In this document: piece by piece, positions 9,001-24,000 of the stretch
Layout of the letters: each line of letters opens with the position of its first letter
Position numbering within the stretch: position 1 is the stretch's first letter
Origin: Perna viridis
Taxonomy: Eukaryota
Assembly: GCA_037379345.1 (NCBI GenBank)
Contig: CM074516.1
Coordinates: 24,552,001-24,616,000, forward strand
Direction: 5' to 3'
DNA length: 64,000 bases
Program-made: the position numbers

Positions 9001-12000
9001 ATGTACAAATAGATTGACAATTCAAACACCGTTTGAATGTCATCTTTATATTTTTCCAAATTGCTTTTACTGTCTGACAGTACTGCTTAAGGTTACTGTC
9101 GTGATTATAAAAAGTATCCGCAATTTTCAATGACAATGTGATTCAACATGGCTGTGATAGCCGATCAACAGAAGAACTCAATTTTGGACGTTGACATGTC
9201 GTTATGCCTCGACCTATCGGTCTAAACGTGACATTGTCTGTTTCGACTTTCAAACTACCGTGTGTATCTTTATCTTAATTTTTTGATTGTATTGAGACCC
9301 AAGTTTGGCTATCTAATTAATGTCCATTGGACATTATAAGTCAAAAATAGGATGAATGAGTAATGAAAAATAAACTCACCGTTTGCCTTAAAGCTGAATA
9401 AATAGTTATTAATTCTTTAACTGGGTATTATGCAAAGGTCCATAGAATATTAGTTGCTAACTGTTTGTTTTACATTTCGTTTTGGCAGGCCTATTTTTGT
9501 AATTCGTATTCAGAGAGTGCAAAATATAAACACAAACAATAACGATACATTCATTGAAATGAAATTATTGAATTGATTCTTTATCGATGCATTGAACATT
9601 TTACAATACTTCATAAACATGTTTCTTTAAAAAAGAAGTAAATTGGTATTTTTTGTATCTTTGTATCTTAACTCTTTTGTTCCCTTTCCAAAATACCTTA
9701 TTTATCCCCAGTAAAGCAAACTATGTCATAATTGTATAGTTAGAAATTGACAACGTAGTCTACTTTTCGACACGGTTCCATAGTAAACTTTTATTACTTG
9801 CTCTCTATCGTATATATGTTGATCGTTTTTTAATGTAAATATTTATCTGCTGGTCCTCTATGGCAAGAGTTTTATTATCTGACCAACGGCGTATCACTTA
9901 AATCTCGCCATAGTATAATTAAGCACTGAGTTCTATAGGACAGGGAAGAAATTTATCAACAATAACCATGTAAAGGATAAAAGAATTTTCAATATGCAAA
10001 ACTAGTTCGACACTACATTTTATCAGATTTAATGGAGAGTTGCGTTAAATGCTGGCTTTTGTTTTATGGCAAAGAAAATTTAAAGTTTAAACTTTCACAA
10101 ACTTATGCAACATGTACATCAATCTACGACTCAATCGTAAGTTTAGGCATGATCTTGATTTTAAATGCCATGTAACGGAGAACAGTAGGGCTATTATATA
10201 TCATTCATAGAAAGAAGCAAGAGAAACTTTCTTTGCATTGTATGACCTCCCCATTAACATCTTTCCGAAATAACGGTAATTAATAACACAATACATCACC
10301 ACCTTACATCAATACATTACCCTGAAAGAAAAAAAACAAGCTCGATCCTGATATGGATAAAAAAAATTATCATGTTATCATTAAAATCATTGTGTTAAGA
10401 ATGCTGACTTTTTTTTCAACTATGCAAGATAAATGTTTAGTCATTTGACATAGAAGAGGTCCATCTAGTGATTGTTCCCTAGTTTATCAGCTAAATATAA
10501 ACAATATGATGATATCTGTTACAACTACTTATAAAATTATCACAACAAAATGAGACTACGGCCTTAGATAAAACACCTGTAAATTCATTTAACAGATTTT
10601 GTAGGGATGATTTGCAAGTTTCAGGTTTTTTCACTACAGACAATTTATTTTGTGCTTATAACTAACCAAGGTAAGATGTTATCGGCTTTCACAATTTTGC
10701 AGTCATTTGAGATTAAAAATATGTGTGTTTTTACATATTGCTCCAGATATAGCACAAATTCCTTTAAAGAGGCTGGTTTTAAATGTACGAATCCGTAAAG
10801 CATTTGGTCCTTTTTAATAATGTTACGAATTTAGGTTCAATAAAAGCGATGAAGGCCTTGTTTATATTTTATATATCTTTATATGATATACCAAAAAAAA
10901 CGTAACGTCGAATGTTACGTTTAACGATTGGGTATAACGTAAACCAAAGAAATAATAGAAAACTTTATATAGCAGAACATTAAAAACAAATCTATATTAT
11001 TTGGGGATGGAATTGGTTGGTGCCTTCAACTTTAATCAACATCCTCTCTGTTTACAATGCCAACTCAACACTGTTATTACCCGTTTCCAAAAGAAACTGT
11101 AAGGTTGATAAAAATGCTTATTTTACAATTGTGTACAAAGTGGTATTTTTTTTTCTTTTAAGCTTCTTCAAACTACTCAAAAACATGTTGCTTTGGAGAT
11201 CAGTGTCCATTCATATGCAATGATACAAAAATTATTTCAATTACCAACATTGATTACGAAAGAAACTGCAGTTCAAGTTTCTCAAGATGTTCCAAAACGT
11301 GCACTAATGGAAACAGCGAAACGTGTCAGATATTTCGTTTACCACTGTCGTCGAACAACTGGAGGAATCATCTTTATTATTCGGGAATTTCGGGGAGGAA
11401 CAATGGGGATTTTACAGCAGATCGGGCACTTTGTGAAAGATCCCAGATAGCTTCAAATATAGTTCACGTCTCTTATTCTTGCCTTAACGGTAAGTAACGT
11501 TCAAAATTTGATAACAGTATGCGGAGGAATCCTAAATGAAGGGGTCTAAATTGAAATACAATTTTAGTCGAAGATCATGTTATGTATACACTAACAAACG
11601 CGCATGTATGAAAGAGATATAACTACTGGGTATTTAGGTTACAGACCACCAATTCAACCAATGAGCATTTGGAACGTACGCAAAAATAGTCCTACACAGA
11701 AATTATCCCTGTTCCTCATAGTGCTGTGAAAAAAGTTCTCATCTTATTTAAAAAATTTAAACAGTTTCTGAAAGGAAAAACATTTCTGTACATTTTATAG
11801 GCGCATTTTGCTTCTTGTGATGTGAAGCCTAATCTCCATAATGATTTTTAAATATACTCCTATCTTGTGAAAACACTGGGATTTCCCATGCTGTTTATAG
11901 ACACTTCACTTCCGGTGACCAGTACTGCACTGCAAGTCTGCTAACCCCACGTGCTGAGGATTGTGAGCTGACATATGTAGAATCATGCTTATATATAGTC

Positions 12001-21000: not shown

Positions 21001-24000
21001 CCTATTTTGATTATATCCACTTAGTGTTAATGTTCATTAATATTATTTCTACATGCACTTTATGGACAGGGAAAATGTTTTTAGTGTACTTAAACTTCTA
21101 TAACTTTTCTTACTATTCGGAAGTCTTATCTAAGACAAACTCGATCTTCGTTATATGGATGGATCCTAATGATGCAATACATCGTACCATGATCAAAACT
21201 TTCTTAACTAGGGTGTTTCGTTGTACTTAGAACGAAATAGAAATACTTGTTATTTGCCTTCAATTCGCTATATTTAGATATATCAACGGCAGACGTTGTT
21301 ACCATTATAACTACGTGACGAGTATTGCATCTCATCTTCAAAATTCTACATACTAGTATATAACATTATGATTTTTTACACAAATACCAATCTGTTGGAT
21401 TTTCATGAAAAACTGAGGTTAGAGTTTGATCATTTGTAAATTGTGATGGTGTAAACATTTGATGTTGAGTGTTTGTGATTATTAACTTCTTTCTGAATCA
21501 ATGCAAATGTTCATCTAACATTTGACTTTCATAAGTACGACGCATTATAGAGTGTAATTCAATAACGATGTGGACAAGAATATGATATTGATTGTTCGTG
21601 TGTATACAACGGCTGAAAAAGAAATGCAAAATCATGTGGGTTTGTTTTTAATTTGTTTTTATTTTATTTAATTTAATCAAACATGTTTTGTGTATTTGCT
21701 TGTAATCATCTTCAGTTTATAGTGCTGGATGAGTTTGTGCTTTGTTTTAATTGATTTTATAGTTATTATGCTTGCTGTTTTCTTTTTCTTGATTGTTCTT
21801 TGGTGTGACTTTTCATGTTGTATATAACTTATCCGTGTTTCATTTAATTTGGTAAGTAAATGTTTAGTTCTCAATTTGTGCTATACGGTTATTGATTACG
21901 CTTATGAAGTTGATATAGTATAATAACATATGTATGGTCACAAAATGTTCATGAAAGTCTGCAAATGTGTACGTTTAAAAATGTATGTTAATTTTGAAAT
22001 AAAGTATCTTTTTGTCTATATGTTCTTAATGTGCCTCTAAACCATGGTGATTTGTTTCCCTTAAATTGAAATGTATATTTATTTCAAAATACAAAAACGA
22101 AAGAATGAATAAACAGAGACAAAAGAAACCACGAACAGCATACTGAAAAGAGCATTTCAAAATAAAAAAAACAAATTAATATAATTCTAAAACTTATATC
22201 AAATAGGCAACCTCGACCCCAACAATGAAACTAGACGTATGGATTATCTGCTCCGGTAGGGTTGTCATTTGGTTTTGTTTCTGTTGTTTTTTTTGTGTTT
22301 TGTTTTGTATTGTTTGTTTTGTTGTGATATTGTTTTTGTTTTCGTTTTCTTTTTCTGTGTTTTTGTTTGTTTATTTTTTTTTTTCATACAAAAAGAGATA
22401 AACAACGTGCTGAATATTAAACCAATAATTCATGATGGTGTAGAATTGTTTCGAAATGATGACTATGAAGAGATAACTATAATGTTGAGATGGCATAATT
22501 TGTTCAAAATTGTTGTGTCTGTCACAACTACGACAAGCTGTTATACAAGATTAAATTCCAAATCATAAGCATTTGGAATGTTTCAATAATAAAGGGAACT
22601 TAACGTTACGGAATGTTGTCATCAAATTTCTGTTGTCACTTCAAAATTTAAAGATTAGAATTATTCAAGTCGTGCCAAAAGTGAGTCCGGTTTTCATTTC
22701 ACTTTCTGTGCAAAATAACAGTTTTCATAATAAAACTCTTGGGAAGCCATTTCATCACCAACTTTGTATTTCTTTTTTTTTGTGATTTTTTCTTCTGAGG
22801 AGAAATGGCGTAAAATATACTAATTCCACCCCCCAAAAATGTCTTGACTGGCTTTGCTTGGCCTTTAGTTCTATTCACACCTCCCTAACCAGGAATCCTG
22901 GATCCGTTCCCTCTGCATATTGGATATGAATTGTCATTTTACATTGTTTATCCAATAAAGTCATTAGTATTGCGGGAAATTAATCATTAACTGTATGTGT
23001 ATGAAGTGAGAATGGACACGTAGCAGCCATTAAAACTTAAGCAAAATTTGATATAATTTTTGGCATACATATGTTGTGCAGCCCATGGTAAAATAATGAT
23101 AAAGTGAAGTTTCCATAATTCATTTCGATTCTAATAGGACTAGTTTCTTCATGTTTTTTTAATAGACGCAGCCAATGCGTTCCACGAAATGTTGGTCATG
23201 TGTTTATCGCTTTTTGGGTTTTCAATCCTTCAGGATAAAAATACCTTATGTCGCCGGTCCACCACTGGAATTTCCATACTAGTTCTGAACACTACACAAA
23301 AGTATAGTCCAAATGTAATTTCTTTTATATCATTCAATACCTATTTTATAACCAGTAAATATGTTTCTTGCAATTATTCAGCTCAAAAATATTCCTTTAT
23401 TTCTGCAAACAAATTTAATGTCGTCGTTATATCAACTGATAATATTGAGCGGGTCCATTTTGGCATTAAAAGATATTTAGTAATAAATTTGCATTTAGGG
23501 AATTTAGTTATTGCAGCAATGTGCCAAGAAGTATAAAATGTGTTAAGATTGTTCCATTCAACACACTTTTCAGACAAATTTTTCATCATATCATTAATAT
23601 TGTACCATTGATAAACAGGAAGTGAAGAGCAGTGATTTTAACCAAGTAAAATTGGCGGAAAAATTTAAATTGATCCTTTCAAAGTGTCTAGTTTTTTAAA
23701 ATATTCTGTTCACCAACTAAGTTATTTTCTTAAGCTGAAATTAGTTTTATTTGAGTATACTTACAATGTATGATAAACACTCTGTTAATATAGTTTTTGA
23801 ATGTAAATGCAATTAAACTTTTTGACAGATCTAAAAATTTGGAAAAAAGGTGAAATGGAACTAATTTGTAAATGTGTGTGAGGTATGATCAGTAGAATGG
23901 ATGACATTCAGTTTAAACATATTAGGAAAAAACAATTCTTAATGATATGTAATTTATTTTACATCATGTAATCTTTTAAATTTTGTTCATGCTACAATTT

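What the first reader, a model, noticed from the sequence alone, without database searches (positions are those of the whole stretch)
10607..21010. Unannotated lectin/CUB-like receptor with an ITIM-bearing cytoplasmic tail
Seen: six exons, largely missed by the ORF track, splice into a 586-aa type I membrane protein with one module per phase-1 exon. The roughly 230-aa low-structure tail has many tyrosine motifs: VNYSMI and SMYDHV fit the ITIM consensus (S/I/V/L)xYxx(I/V/L); NDYNHL, NKYDHA, NPYVDD and terminal RYDLF are also present. Known: ITIMs recruit SH2-domain phosphatases in inhibitory receptors. Inference: a candidate invertebrate glycan-sensing inhibitory or self-recognition receptor. 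The adjacent segmental duplication may belong to an expanding array of this gene.
Basis: partly seen in the sequence, partly recalled or inferred. Interest (0 to 1): 0.65.

Follow-up and report, generated by a model that had tools for sequence, protein, structure and literature searches.

The report
Mussel-only receptor gene with tyrosine-motif tail
This is a real six-exon gene for a single-pass membrane protein of a small, uncharacterised family so far seen only in mussels; its tail carries conserved tyrosine motifs, but its lectin/CUB folds and an inhibitory role are not shown.

Summary
The gene model holds. Six exons (10607-21010, + strand) with five GT..AG introns sum to 586 codons. Searched exon by exon, exons 2, 3, 5 and 6 match the same Mytilus "uncharacterized protein" collinearly, e.g. 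XP_076076673.1 of M. galloprovincialis. The exon 2/3 junction leaves exactly one residue for the split codon.

No exon and no relative reaches any Pfam family or solved structure by sequence. AlphaFold models are poor (pLDDT 49 and 53). Weak leads point to a SUEL/rhamnose-lectin-like exon 2 and a CUB-like exon 3. Exon 2 keeps eight cysteines but lacks the YGR, DPC and KYL sugar motifs.

Four tail tyrosines are invariant in 6 of 6 sequences. The strict ITIM consensus is conserved at neither site, and two ITIMs are near chance (P=0.059).

The "segmental duplication" is two copies of a reverse-transcriptase/tyrosine-recombinase retroelement, not a gene array. No paralogue lies in the window.

Verdict: real gene, new divergent member of an undescribed mussel family; inhibitory glycan sensing is only one reading.

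The parts
10607..10670 (+). Exon 1: start codon and 21 codons of a hydrophobic N-terminal (signal-peptide-like) segment; ends in phase 1
   Evidence: First ATG of its open stretch; donor AAG|GTAAGA. Kyte-Doolittle 19-mer mean 1.47. It is the least certain exon: chance-open probability 0.20 and no significant match to relatives.
11163..11489 (+). Exon 2 (phase 1-1, 327 nt): cysteine-rich module A, SUEL/rhamnose-lectin-like by weak leads only
   Evidence: Acceptor after a T-run, donor ACG|GTAAGT. BLASTP to P0011 residues 29-125, E=2e-22, and to 4 other relatives. Eight conserved Cys. No Pfam or PDB sequence hit. Model pLDDT 53.1. Foldseek top hits are LAT-1/latrophilin lectin domains, E 0.38-1.6. 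ESM Atlas gives SUEL_Lectin clusters at 0.90.
16945..17313 (+). Exon 3 (phase 1-1, 369 nt): all-beta module B, CUB/jelly-roll-like by weak leads only
   Evidence: Acceptor TTTCAG|, donor AAT|GTAAGT. 10 hits at E<=1e-3 among 1.84 billion representatives, best 1.4e-30. BLASTP to P0011 residues 127-245. Invariant D54, R56, G67, C69, L76, C85, G92, Y94, L108, H109, W118, I119 in 12 sequences. Model pLDDT 49.4 with 7 strands. Foldseek and ESM leads.
18366..18575 (+). Exon 4 (phase 1-1, 210 nt): Ser/Thr-rich stalk (mucin-like)
   Evidence: Acceptor ACACAG|, donor CAA|GTATGT. 41% Ser+Thr and one sequon. No significant similarity to the longer Mytilus stalks. By eye, its first 12 residues keep the spacing to a Cys seen after module B in the Mytilus proteins.
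19787..19904 (+). Exon 5 (phase 1 to 2, 118 nt): acidic juxtamembrane stretch, transmembrane helix, basic stop-transfer residues
   Evidence: Acceptor TTTACAG|, donor AAG|GTAGAG. Kyte-Doolittle 19-mer mean 2.98. Weak collinear match to P0004 residues 396-429, E=0.002.
20338..21010 (+). Exon 6 (starts in phase 2): 223 whole codons of cytoplasmic tail plus TGA. Holds 8 Tyr. Conserved motifs are D-x-Y-x-H-L/V, Y-D-H, Y-D-H/K-V, P-Y-V-D-D/E and a C-terminal D-M..A..W-A block
   Evidence: Acceptor TTTTTATAG|. Chance-open probability 3.9e-8. BLASTP residues 86-207 to P0014 residues 498-622, E=5e-9, and to 5 other family sequences (P0004 of the same 90% cluster, P0011, P0013, P0001, P0012). Invariant columns; motifs. 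The exact acceptor rests on splice consensus and frame, not on homology.
14786..15796 (+). Repeat inside intron 2 (context, not part of the gene product). A second copy lies at 31898-32861. It includes a short dispersed repeat that also occurs at 12279-12495 (+), 12901-13125 (-) and 17750-17902 (+)
   Evidence: 87% identity over 1020 columns to 31898-32861. 74-75% identity to part of the retroelement copies. No Pfam family at E<=1.
1..5806 (+). Retroelement copy 1 (virus-like stretch; context). It is cut by the left edge of the window. It carries reverse transcriptase, tyrosine recombinase (SAM-like plus Phage_integrase) and a GDSL-like hydrolase domain
   Evidence: 97.4% identity over 4442 columns and 92.1% over 1222 columns to copy 2. 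RVT_1 E=2.4e-10, Phage_int_SAM_1 E=1.4e-4, Phage_integrase E=1.9e-9. Lipase_GDSL_2 E=1.4e-3.
25341..31045 (+). Retroelement copy 2 (virus-like stretch; context). Same domain order, with a weak RNase H-like match as well. Similarity to copy 1 ends at 30937; the GDSL-like match runs to about 31045
   Evidence: RVT_1 E=1.9e-12 and Lipase_GDSL_2 E=8.4e-7. RT_RNaseH E=2e-3 and Phage_integrase E=3.6e-3.

Best explanation
This is a functional six-exon gene for a 586-codon single-pass type I membrane glycoprotein. It is a divergent member (about 30-45% identity per module) of a small, uncharacterised protein family found so far only in mussels of the genus Mytilus.

Outside the cell it carries:
- an eight-cysteine module of about 100 residues, most like a SUEL/rhamnose-binding-lectin-type domain but without that family's sugar-binding motifs;
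- an all-beta module of about 120 residues, most like a CUB-type jelly roll;
- a Ser/Thr-rich stalk.

Inside the cell it carries a tail of about 230 residues. Its conserved positions centre on five tyrosine motifs: Y-S-x-I/V, D-x-Y-x-H-L/V, Y-D-H, Y-D-H/K-V and P-Y-V-D-D/E.

Most likely mechanism (inferred, not shown):
1. The two N-terminal modules bind an extracellular ligand, protein as likely as glycan.
2. The conserved tail tyrosines are phosphorylated.
3. They then serve as docking sites for SH2/PTB-type proteins.

Whether the output is inhibitory, activating or endocytic is undetermined.

Shown: gene structure, family membership, topology features and motif conservation. Inferred: folds, ligand, phosphorylation and signalling.
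For: **Gene model**
- Canonical splice sites and a G+C contrast between exons and introns.
- Long open frames unlikely by chance.

**Family membership, tested exon by exon**
- e2, e3, e5 and e6 hit the same Mytilus proteins in the same order.
- Searching the Mytilus proteins back on the window hits only e2, e3 and e6.
- e2 ends at P0011 residue 125 and e3 starts at residue 127, which leaves one residue for the split codon.
- Five of the seven short hits aligned in A1 (P0003, P0005, P0007-P0009) stop resembling e3 at its last residues and continue with a Gly. This is as expected for genomic read-through of a phase-1 GT donor at the same place. P0005 against P0011 shows it directly.
- P0004 (627 aa) sits on a contig of 1961 nt, too short for introns, so a spliced transcript of a relative probably exists (inference).

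**Topology**
- Hydropathy and the positive-inside pattern.

**Tail**
- 4 invariant Tyr in 6 of 6 sequences, and Tyr enrichment among invariant columns, p=0.016.
- Y-S-x-I/V is present in 6 of 6.

**Folds (leads only)**
- Eight conserved Cys in module A.
- Foldseek and ESM Atlas leads.
Against: - No transcript evidence for this gene itself.
- e1, e4 and the e5/e6 junction lack significant homology support.
- Both structure models are low-confidence (pLDDT 49.4 and 53.1). No Foldseek match reaches E<=0.001.
- ESM Atlas 'recognition' values of 1841 and 2200 are below the tool's 2300 mark.
- No Pfam family or PDB sequence match at permissive thresholds.
- Word-based searches with e2 and e6 against longer proteins found nothing.
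- The family is small and narrow in the searches done, so conservation is measured over only 6 sequences, 5 of them from one genus.
- Nothing here tests phosphorylation or partner binding.
Confidence: 0.6

Rival explanations
1. One reading: a glycan-sensing inhibitory or self-recognition receptor. ITIMs in the tail would recruit SH2-domain phosphatases after the lectin-like ectodomain binds sugar.
For: - Two matches to (S/I/V/L)xYxx(I/V/L) in the tail.
- The membrane-proximal Y-S-x-I/V site is present in 6 of 6 family sequences. It fits the ITIM/ITSM-extended consensus quoted in PMC11460946 (passages read) in 5 of 6.
- SUEL-lectin leads for e2.
Against: - Two ITIM matches are near chance (P=0.059).
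- The consensus is unspecific: 40,063 of 96,457 human protein sequences hold the extended form (PMC11460946, passage).
- SMYDHV fits ITIM only in the window's protein, 1 of 6.
- The column homology of VNYSMI with the Mytilus site is parameter-dependent: 1 of 5 and 3 of 5 pairwise alignments.
- The best-conserved motifs (D-x-Y-x-H-L, Y-D-H, P-Y-V-D-E) are not ITIMs.
- YGR is changed to YER/FER, and DPC and KYL are absent. The nearest structural leads, latrophilin lectin domains, appear in the Foldseek list as complexes with protein partners.
Confidence: 0.15
2. An adhesion, scavenger or endocytic receptor. The Y-x-x-hydrophobic motifs would act as clathrin-adaptor sorting signals rather than phosphotyrosine docking sites.
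For: - 4 Y-x-x-[LIVMF] motifs in the tail.
- A heavily glycosylated stalked ectodomain.
- The sorting role of Y-x-x-hydrophobic motifs is established knowledge (recalled).
Against: - 4 such motifs are not more than chance (shuffle mean 1.85, P=0.088).
- Conservation extends to the +1 and +2 positions (D and H invariant at two sites) and to P-Y-V-D-D/E. A generic sorting signal does not require this.
Confidence: 0.2
3. Not a working gene: a chance chain of open frames or a decaying pseudogene copy.
For: - No transcript evidence here.
- e1 and e5 are short enough to be open by chance.
- Introns are loaded with repeats.
Against: - Open-frame probabilities of 3.9e-8, 8.8e-5 and 2.6e-4 for e6, e3 and e2.
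- Collinear homology of four exons with an exact junction fit.
- No in-frame stop or frameshift in any homologous part.
- All conserved Cys and Tyr are kept.
Confidence: 0.03
4. The gene is part of an expanding tandem array marked by the adjacent segmental duplication.
For: - In M. coruscus one model (P0001) holds module B twice. It looks like two neighbouring paralogues fused, so tandem copies may exist in other species.
Against: - The duplicated blocks (1-5806 and 25341-30937) encode reverse transcriptase, tyrosine recombinase and a GDSL-like domain. They end about 4.8 kb before the gene.
- tblastn of each exon and of six Mytilus sequences (five relatives plus P0014) finds no second copy in the window.
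Confidence: 0.02

Closest known systems
Mytilus 'uncharacterized protein' family: XP_076076673.1 (LOC143047503, M. galloprovincialis; P0014/P0004), P0011 and P0012 (M. edulis), CAC5388009.1 (P0001) and P0013 (M. coruscus)
   Same: Same order of parts: signal-like N-terminus, eight-Cys module A, module B, Ser/Thr-rich stalk, one transmembrane helix, and a tail with the same tyrosine motifs and the same C-terminal D-M..A..W-A block. Same exon 3 donor position and phase.
   Different: Only 30-41% (module A), 39-43% (module B) and 27-31% (tail) identity. The stalk is about half as long and not alignable. There are about 20 extra residues between the first two Tyr motifs. The C-terminus is extended and ends in RYDLF instead of EED-x-L. 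The window's module A has two extra Cys.
SUEL / rhamnose-binding lectin domain (PF02140), e.g. the lectin domains of latrophilin-3 and C. elegans LAT-1 (PDB 6vhh, 8djg, 5afb, 8suf)
   Same: About 100 residues with eight conserved Cys (definition from PMC10817417 passages). These domains take ranks 1, 2, 4, 5, 6 and 7 of the Foldseek list for e2. They dominate the ESM Atlas feature hits, 20 of 30 at score up to 0.90.
   Different: No PF02140 match at E<=10. No PDB sequence or profile match. YGR reads YER/FER, and DPC and KYL are absent. Foldseek E is 0.38-1.6 and TM 0.35-0.40 on a model of pLDDT 53, which shows no helix. The carrier here is a single-pass protein, not an adhesion GPCR.
CUB domain (PF00431) and single-pass CUB receptors (Neto2, neuropilin; CDCP1 recalled from memory as a CUB receptor with a tyrosine-phosphorylated tail)
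   Same: About 120 residues, all-beta in the model. A conserved Cys pair 16 residues apart plus N-terminal Cys. CUB entries appear at ranks 5, 17, 20 and 49 of 50 listed Foldseek hits, with MASP-1 CUB2 at TM 0.44/0.47. ESM Atlas gives CUB and CRF-BP_N clusters at 0.85-0.89.
   Different: No PF00431 match. Five Cys rather than four. Other jelly rolls (virus capsids, GOLD, carbohydrate-binding modules) score the same or better. The model has pLDDT 49. The CDCP1 comparison is recalled and was not tested.
ITIM/ITSM-bearing inhibitory receptors (vertebrate Siglecs, PD-1; oyster CgSiglec-1 as reviewed in PMC5877582)
   Same: Type I topology with cytoplasmic matches to the ITIM consensus (consensus from PMC11460946; Siglec passage in PMC5877582).
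   Different: The ectodomain is not immunoglobulin-like. ITIM fit is conserved at one site in 3 of 6 sequences (5 of 6 with the ITSM extension) and at the other in 1 of 6. Phosphatase recruitment is untested.

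Membership tests
Mytilus LOC143047503-like uncharacterised membrane-protein family | Collinear sequence similarity over module A, module B, the transmembrane region and the tail | tested here: met
   Exon-wise BLASTP against P0011: e2 to 29-125 (2e-22), e3 to 127-245 (5e-23), e5 to 397-433 (0.006), e6 to 499-623 (9e-8). The same order holds in the other four relatives where the part exists. 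The reverse tblastn hits only these exons.
Mytilus LOC143047503-like uncharacterised membrane-protein family | Shared conserved residues: 8 Cys in module A, the D-R/G-C/C/G-Y/L-H/W-I set in module B, and 4 invariant tail Tyr | tested here: met
SUEL / rhamnose-binding lectin domain (PF02140) | Domain of about 100 residues with eight conserved cysteines (PMC10817417, passages) | tested here: met
   108-codon exon and 96 profile positions. C9, C18, C35, C42, C46 and C54 are conserved in 4 of 4 relatives. C90 and C106 are conserved in 3 of 3 relatives that cover them.
SUEL / rhamnose-binding lectin domain (PF02140) | YGR, DPC and KYL peptide motifs (PMC10817417, passages) | tested here: not met
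   YER (FER in P0004) stands where YGR would lie. There is no DPC and no KYL in any of the 5 sequences.
SUEL / rhamnose-binding lectin domain (PF02140) | Match to the family profile or to a solved member by sequence | tested here: not met
   No PF02140 hit at E<=10 for e2 or at E<=1 for the Mytilus proteins. phmmer and profile searches of the PDB at E<=10 gave no lectin.
SUEL / rhamnose-binding lectin domain (PF02140) | The alpha/beta fold of solved members | tested here: inconclusive
   Model pLDDT 53.1, pTM 0.51. The best Foldseek hits are LAT-1/latrophilin lectin domains, but E is 0.38-1.6 and TM 0.35-0.40, with 0 hits at E<=0.001. ESM Atlas lead at 0.90.
SUEL / rhamnose-binding lectin domain (PF02140) | Binding of rhamnose or galactose | not testable with these tools
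   No assay was possible. The loss of the motifs argues against canonical binding (inference).
CUB domain (PF00431) | About 100-110 residues, often four conserved cysteines in two disulfides (PMC9083331, passage) | tested here: inconclusive
   122-codon exon. C69 and C85 are invariant in 12 of 12 sequences. C39 is kept in 9 of 9, C37 in 8 of 9 and C7 in 5 of 6 relatives that cover them, giving five Cys rather than four.
CUB domain (PF00431) | Match to the family profile or to a solved member by sequence | tested here: not met
   No CUB hit. The PDB searches returned 0 hits.
CUB domain (PF00431) | Compact beta-sandwich fold | tested here: inconclusive
   The model is all-beta with 7 strands, but pLDDT is 49.4. 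CUB entries lie among many other jelly rolls, and no hit reaches E<=0.001. ESM Atlas CUB clusters at 0.85-0.89.
ITIM-bearing inhibitory receptors | Cytoplasmic (V/L/I/S)xYxx(I/L/V) (PMC11460946, passage) | tested here: met
   VNYSMI and SMYDHV in e6. Not above chance: P(>=2)=0.059.
ITIM-bearing inhibitory receptors | The motif is conserved in relatives | tested here: inconclusive
   Site 1 fits strict ITIM in 3 of 6 and the extended consensus in 5 of 6. Site 2 fits in 1 of 6. The alignment of site 1 is ambiguous.
ITIM-bearing inhibitory receptors | Tyrosine phosphorylation and recruitment of SH2-domain phosphatases, with inhibitory output | not testable with these tools
   No data.

The most novel reading that the evidence does not exclude
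The gene belongs to a mussel-lineage-born receptor family with no detectable sequence relative elsewhere. The family would pair a sugar-blind SUEL-type module and a CUB-type module with a private set of phosphotyrosine motifs: a conserved ITIM/ITSM-like Y-S-x-V/I, three Y-D-H-type sites and P-Y-V-D-E. On this reading it is a lineage-specific cell-cell or self/non-self recognition receptor with its own docking code, in animals known (recalled) for transmissible neoplasia and for large presence/absence variation of immune genes.
Probability: 0.08. Interest if true: 0.8.

Novelty: new variant of a known kind. Interest (0 to 1): 0.4.

Why it matters
If the reading holds, mussels have a family of single-pass receptors that no domain library recognises, and whose tail conservation is focused on tyrosines. 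That gives a concrete, testable entry point into phosphotyrosine-based receptor signalling in bivalves, where few such receptors are described. My text searches found only reviews that mention the oyster Siglec, and no paper on this family.

The result also corrects two tempting over-readings. A match to the ITIM consensus is close to chance in a tail with 8 tyrosines. The neighbouring 'duplication' is mobile-element DNA, not gene-family growth.

Tried and rejected
**Pfam**
- Each exon at E<=10 gave only sub-threshold chance hits.
- Four full-length Mytilus relatives and three short hits at E<=1 gave nothing relevant.

**PDB sequence searches**
- e2 and e3 alone.
- Profile of module B from 8 sequences.
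- Whole-family profile.
- Module-A-only profile.
- No lectin or CUB appeared in any of them.

**Word-indexed protein searches against longer proteins**
- e6 and e2 gave none at E<=0.01. The tool itself calls this weak evidence.

**Other negative searches**
- Paralogue search in the window with each exon and with six Mytilus sequences, the five relatives plus P0014. Only weak chance hits appeared; two e2 hits at E 0.3-0.44 fall in the retroelement's recombinase region.
- Rfam on the whole window: 0 families.

**Sequences dropped from alignments**
- P0010 (E=9.5e-4, an internally repetitive 164-aa sequence) was left out of all alignments.
- P0012 lacks modules A and B, so it was used only for the tail.
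- P0014 is in the same 90% cluster as P0004, so it was used only in BLAST.

**Not run**
- The joined 586-residue product was not assembled or searched; the model was tested exon by exon.
- Genome contigs (bacteria and archaea only) was not scanned because it cannot hold this gene.
- No intact reference for the retroelement was available, so its breaks were not counted gene by gene.
- Supplementary files of papers were not consulted.

Full report
**1. What is in the sequence**

The window is AT-rich eukaryotic DNA (30-37% G+C per 2 kb) with one N run (33026-33195), which I left as it is. Between 10607 and 21010 on the + strand I re-derived six exons from stop-free stretches and splice signals:

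| Exon | Coordinates | Length / phase |
|---|---|---|
| e1 | 10607-10670 | starts at ATG, ends in phase 1 |
| e2 | 11163-11489 | 327 nt, phase 1-1 |
| e3 | 16945-17313 | 369 nt, phase 1-1 |
| e4 | 18366-18575 | 210 nt, phase 1-1 |
| e5 | 19787-19904 | 118 nt, phase 1 to 2 |
| e6 | 20338-21010 | includes TGA |

- All five introns are GT..AG with pyrimidine-rich acceptors. Exons e2-e6 have 37-40% G+C (e1 29%) against 29-34% in the introns.
- At the local stop-codon frequency (0.074) the open frames of e6, e3 and e2 have chance probabilities of 3.9e-8, 8.8e-5 and 2.6e-4. e1 (0.20) and e5 (0.05) are not significant alone.
- e5 holds a hydrophobic 19-mer (Kyte-Doolittle mean 2.98), flanked by acidic residues on the N-side and RNKWKKE on the C-side. 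e1 is moderately hydrophobic. e2-e4 carry 8 N-glycosylation sequons, and e4 is 41% Ser+Thr.
- These features fit a type I membrane glycoprotein with a cytoplasmic tail of about 230 residues.
- One correction: only e2-e4 are phase 1-1 exons.

**2. Relatives**

- An exhaustive HMMER search with e3 alone found 10 proteins at E<=1e-3 among 1.84 billion representatives, 5 of them at E<=1e-10.
- Two are long proteins (P0001, 880 aa; P0004, 627 aa). The rest are short ORFs of 118-164 aa.
- A search with P0004 found 5 proteins at E<=0.001 among 5479 candidates, all from Mytilus edulis or M. coruscus or unnamed.
- P0004's 90% cluster includes XP_076076673.1, 'uncharacterized protein LOC143047503' of M. 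galloprovincialis.
- Exon-wise BLASTP shows collinearity. Against P0011, e2 matches 29-125, e3 matches 127-245, e5 matches 397-433 and e6 matches 499-623. The order is the same in the other relatives. e4, the stalk, is not significantly similar.
- The one residue left between the e2 and e3 matches is what a split codon requires.
- Five of the seven short hits aligned in A1 (P0003, P0005, P0007-P0009) lose similarity exactly at the end of e3 and continue with Gly. This fits ORF calls that read through a phase-1 GT donor. P0005 against P0011 shows it directly. Position and phase of this intron are therefore shared.
- P0004 lies on a contig of 1961 nt, which can hold 627 codons only without introns. 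A spliced transcript of a relative therefore probably exists (inference).
- The source organism is presumably a mytilid mussel or a close relative. This is inferred only from the taxonomy of the hits.
- Earlier word-indexed searches with e6 and e2 against longer proteins had found nothing.

**3. The ectodomain modules**

Sequence-level tests were all negative:
- No exon and none of the Mytilus proteins reaches any Pfam family.
- PDB sequence and profile searches returned no relevant hit.

Structure-level tests gave weak leads only:
- AlphaFold2 on family alignments gave low-confidence models. e3 had pLDDT 49.4 and pTM 0.39, with 12 sequences. e2 had pLDDT 53.1 and pTM 0.51, with 5 sequences.
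- Foldseek against the PDB gave 0 matches at E<=0.001 for either model.
- For e2, lectin domains of C. elegans LAT-1 and human latrophilin-3 take ranks 1, 2, 4, 5, 6 and 7 (E 0.38-1.6, TM 0.35-0.40).
- For e3, the list is a mix of jelly rolls, with CUB-containing entries at ranks 5, 17, 20 and 49 of 50 listed (MASP-1 CUB2, TM 0.44/0.47).
- The ESM Atlas feature search points the same way. SUEL_Lectin clusters came up for e2 (score 0.90, 20 of 30 hits). For e3 an unnamed mollusc cluster (0.94) came first, then CUB and CRF-BP_N clusters (0.85-0.89). The tool's 'recognition' values (1841 and 2200) are below its 2300 mark.

Against the defining features of rhamnose-binding lectin domains (about 100 residues, eight conserved Cys, YGR/DPC/KYL motifs; PMC10817417, passages read):
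- Module A has the size and eight conserved Cys.
- It has YER/FER in place of YGR, and no DPC or KYL.

Against the CUB description (100-110 residues, often four Cys, beta-sandwich; PMC9083331, passage read):
- Module B has five conserved Cys and an all-beta model.
- It has no profile match.

I therefore treat 'SUEL-like' and 'CUB-like' as converging but unproven leads. I do not file either module as a member of those families. Loss of the sugar motifs makes a protein ligand at least as likely as a glycan. The latrophilin lectin domains that came up are listed in complexes with teneurin and TOL-1.

**4. The tail**

- In the alignment of e6 with five Mytilus tails, four tyrosines are invariant in 6 of 6 sequences:
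  - Y88 in D-x-Y-x-H-L/V;
  - Y109 in Y-D-H;
  - Y126 in Y-D-H/K, followed by V, M or L;
  - Y170 in P-Y-V-D-D/E.
- A C-terminal D-M..A..W-A block is invariant as well.
- Tyr is over-represented among invariant columns: 4 of 8 Tyr against 28 of 215 other residues, one-sided Fisher p=0.016.
- A fifth motif, Y-S-x-I/V, is the first conserved Tyr motif after the membrane in all 6 sequences. MAFFT does not put it in one column. Pairwise global alignments do so in 1 of 5 cases (gap open -10) or 3 of 5 cases (gap open -6).
- Y31, Y138 and the terminal RYDLF are not conserved.

Measured against the ITIM consensus (V/L/I/S)xYxx(I/L/V) and its ITSM extension with T (PMC11460946, passages read):
- The Y-S-x-I/V site fits strict ITIM in 3 of 6 sequences and the extended form in 5 of 6.
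- SMYDHV fits only in the window's protein, 1 of 6.
- Two ITIM matches in this tail are near chance: shuffle mean 0.41, P(>=2)=0.059. Four Y-x-x-hydrophobic motifs are also near chance: mean 1.85, P=0.088.
- The same paper reports the extended consensus in 40,063 of 96,457 human protein sequences, so the motif alone is weak evidence.

What stands out is the conservation of the tyrosines together with their +1 and +2 residues. This speaks for specific recognition, most simply phosphotyrosine docking. It does not show an inhibitory output.

**5. The 'segmental duplication' and other repeats**

- Blocks 1-5806 and 25341-30937 are 97.4% identical over 4442 columns and 92.1% identical over 1222 columns.
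- They encode reverse transcriptase (RVT_1), a weak RNase H-like match, a tyrosine recombinase (Phage_int_SAM_1 and Phage_integrase) and a GDSL-like hydrolase domain.
- This is the domain set of tyrosine-recombinase retroelements of the DIRS/Ngaro kind. That name is recalled and was not tested.
- This is the virus-like stretch of the window, and I only describe it.
- Copy 1 is cut by the left window edge.
- In both copies the coding region is not continuous. It lies in 12 open pieces (copy 1) and 10 open pieces (copy 2) of at least 80 codons on the + strand.
- Such elements normally have overlapping frames, and no intact reference was available. I therefore could not say how many of these discontinuities are breaks, or in which gene.
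- The blocks end about 4.8 kb upstream of the gene and contain no part of it. No paralogue of the gene lies in the window. The 'expanding array' idea is therefore not supported here.
- M. coruscus P0001 carries module B twice. It looks like two neighbouring paralogues fused into one model.
- Intron 2 (5455 nt) holds a repeat (14786-15796) with a second copy at 31898-32861.
- A short dispersed repeat occurs four times in introns 2 and 3. Neither repeat has a Pfam family.

**6. Literature**

- Full-text searches were: 'ITIM, bivalve, receptor, hemocytes' (2 papers); 'ITIM, Mytilus' (8 papers); 'SUEL, CUB, transmembrane, mollusc' (3 of 4 terms, 15 of 1,092 listed).
- They turned up no description of this family.
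- I read passages only, from PMC5877582 (oyster Siglec and ITIM) and PMC8878817 (SUEL lectins in lophotrochozoans).
- The searched library misses most subscription journals, and supplements were closed. 'Not described' is limited to these searches.

**7. Verdict**

  - It is a real receptor-like gene with conserved tail tyrosines.
  - The lectin and CUB folds are leads.
  - 'Glycan-sensing' is weakened.
  - 'ITIM-bearing inhibitory receptor' is one of several readings.
  - The gene-array idea is wrong for this window.
- The gene is a divergent new member of an undescribed, so far mussel-only family.
- Interest is moderate.

Noticed in passing
window 1-5806 and 25341-31045 (+): Two copies, 92-97% identical, of a retroelement with reverse transcriptase, tyrosine recombinase and a GDSL-like hydrolase domain. 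Copy 1 is cut by the window edge. Reading frames are discontinuous in both copies. The breaks were not mapped or counted per gene because no intact reference was available.
   Followed up: partly
window 14786-15796 and 31898-32861; short repeat at 12279-12495 (+), 12901-13125 (-), 15563-15797 (+), 17750-17902 (+), 32628-32866 (+): Unnamed repeats fill introns 2 and 3 of the gene. One shares 74-75% identity over about 430 nt with part of the retroelement copies. No Pfam family was found. The pair at 12279-12495 and 12901-13125 is inverted.
   Followed up: partly
window 19905-19908, just after the exon 5 donor: Read in the exon 5 frame, the intron gives a stop after one more codon. A transcript that retained intron 5 would therefore encode a tail-less form of about 8 cytoplasmic residues. 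There is no evidence that such a form exists.
   Followed up: no
window 52390-53499 (-): Tc1/mariner-type transposase remnant. HTH_Tnp_Tc3_2 (E=2.4e-12) and DDE_3 (E=3.9e-10) lie in two separate open pieces, so there is at least one break.
   Followed up: no
window 59924-60448 (-): An open stretch with a strong Caveolin match (PF01146, E=4.8e-21, profile positions 23-125 of 133). It is probably an exon of a caveolin gene.
   Followed up: no
window 42696-43670 (-): The longest stop-free stretch of the window (325 codons). It has no family: only a weak fn3 match (E=0.014), and no PDB hit better than E=0.21.
   Followed up: partly
window 48829-49377; 31569-31690; 14999-15055; 55654-55809: Tandem repeats: 46 nt x 11.9 copies; 29 nt x 4.2 copies just after retroelement copy 2; (TA)28 inside intron 2; 53 nt x 2.9 copies.
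   Followed up: no
window 6001-8000: Strong AT skew (+0.27) in this 2-kb bin just after retroelement copy 1. Not examined.
   Followed up: no
P0001 (M. coruscus, CAC5388009.1): This 880-aa model contains module B twice, with a partial module A between the copies. It looks like a fusion of two neighbouring paralogues, which would mean tandem copies of the family in that species.
   Followed up: partly
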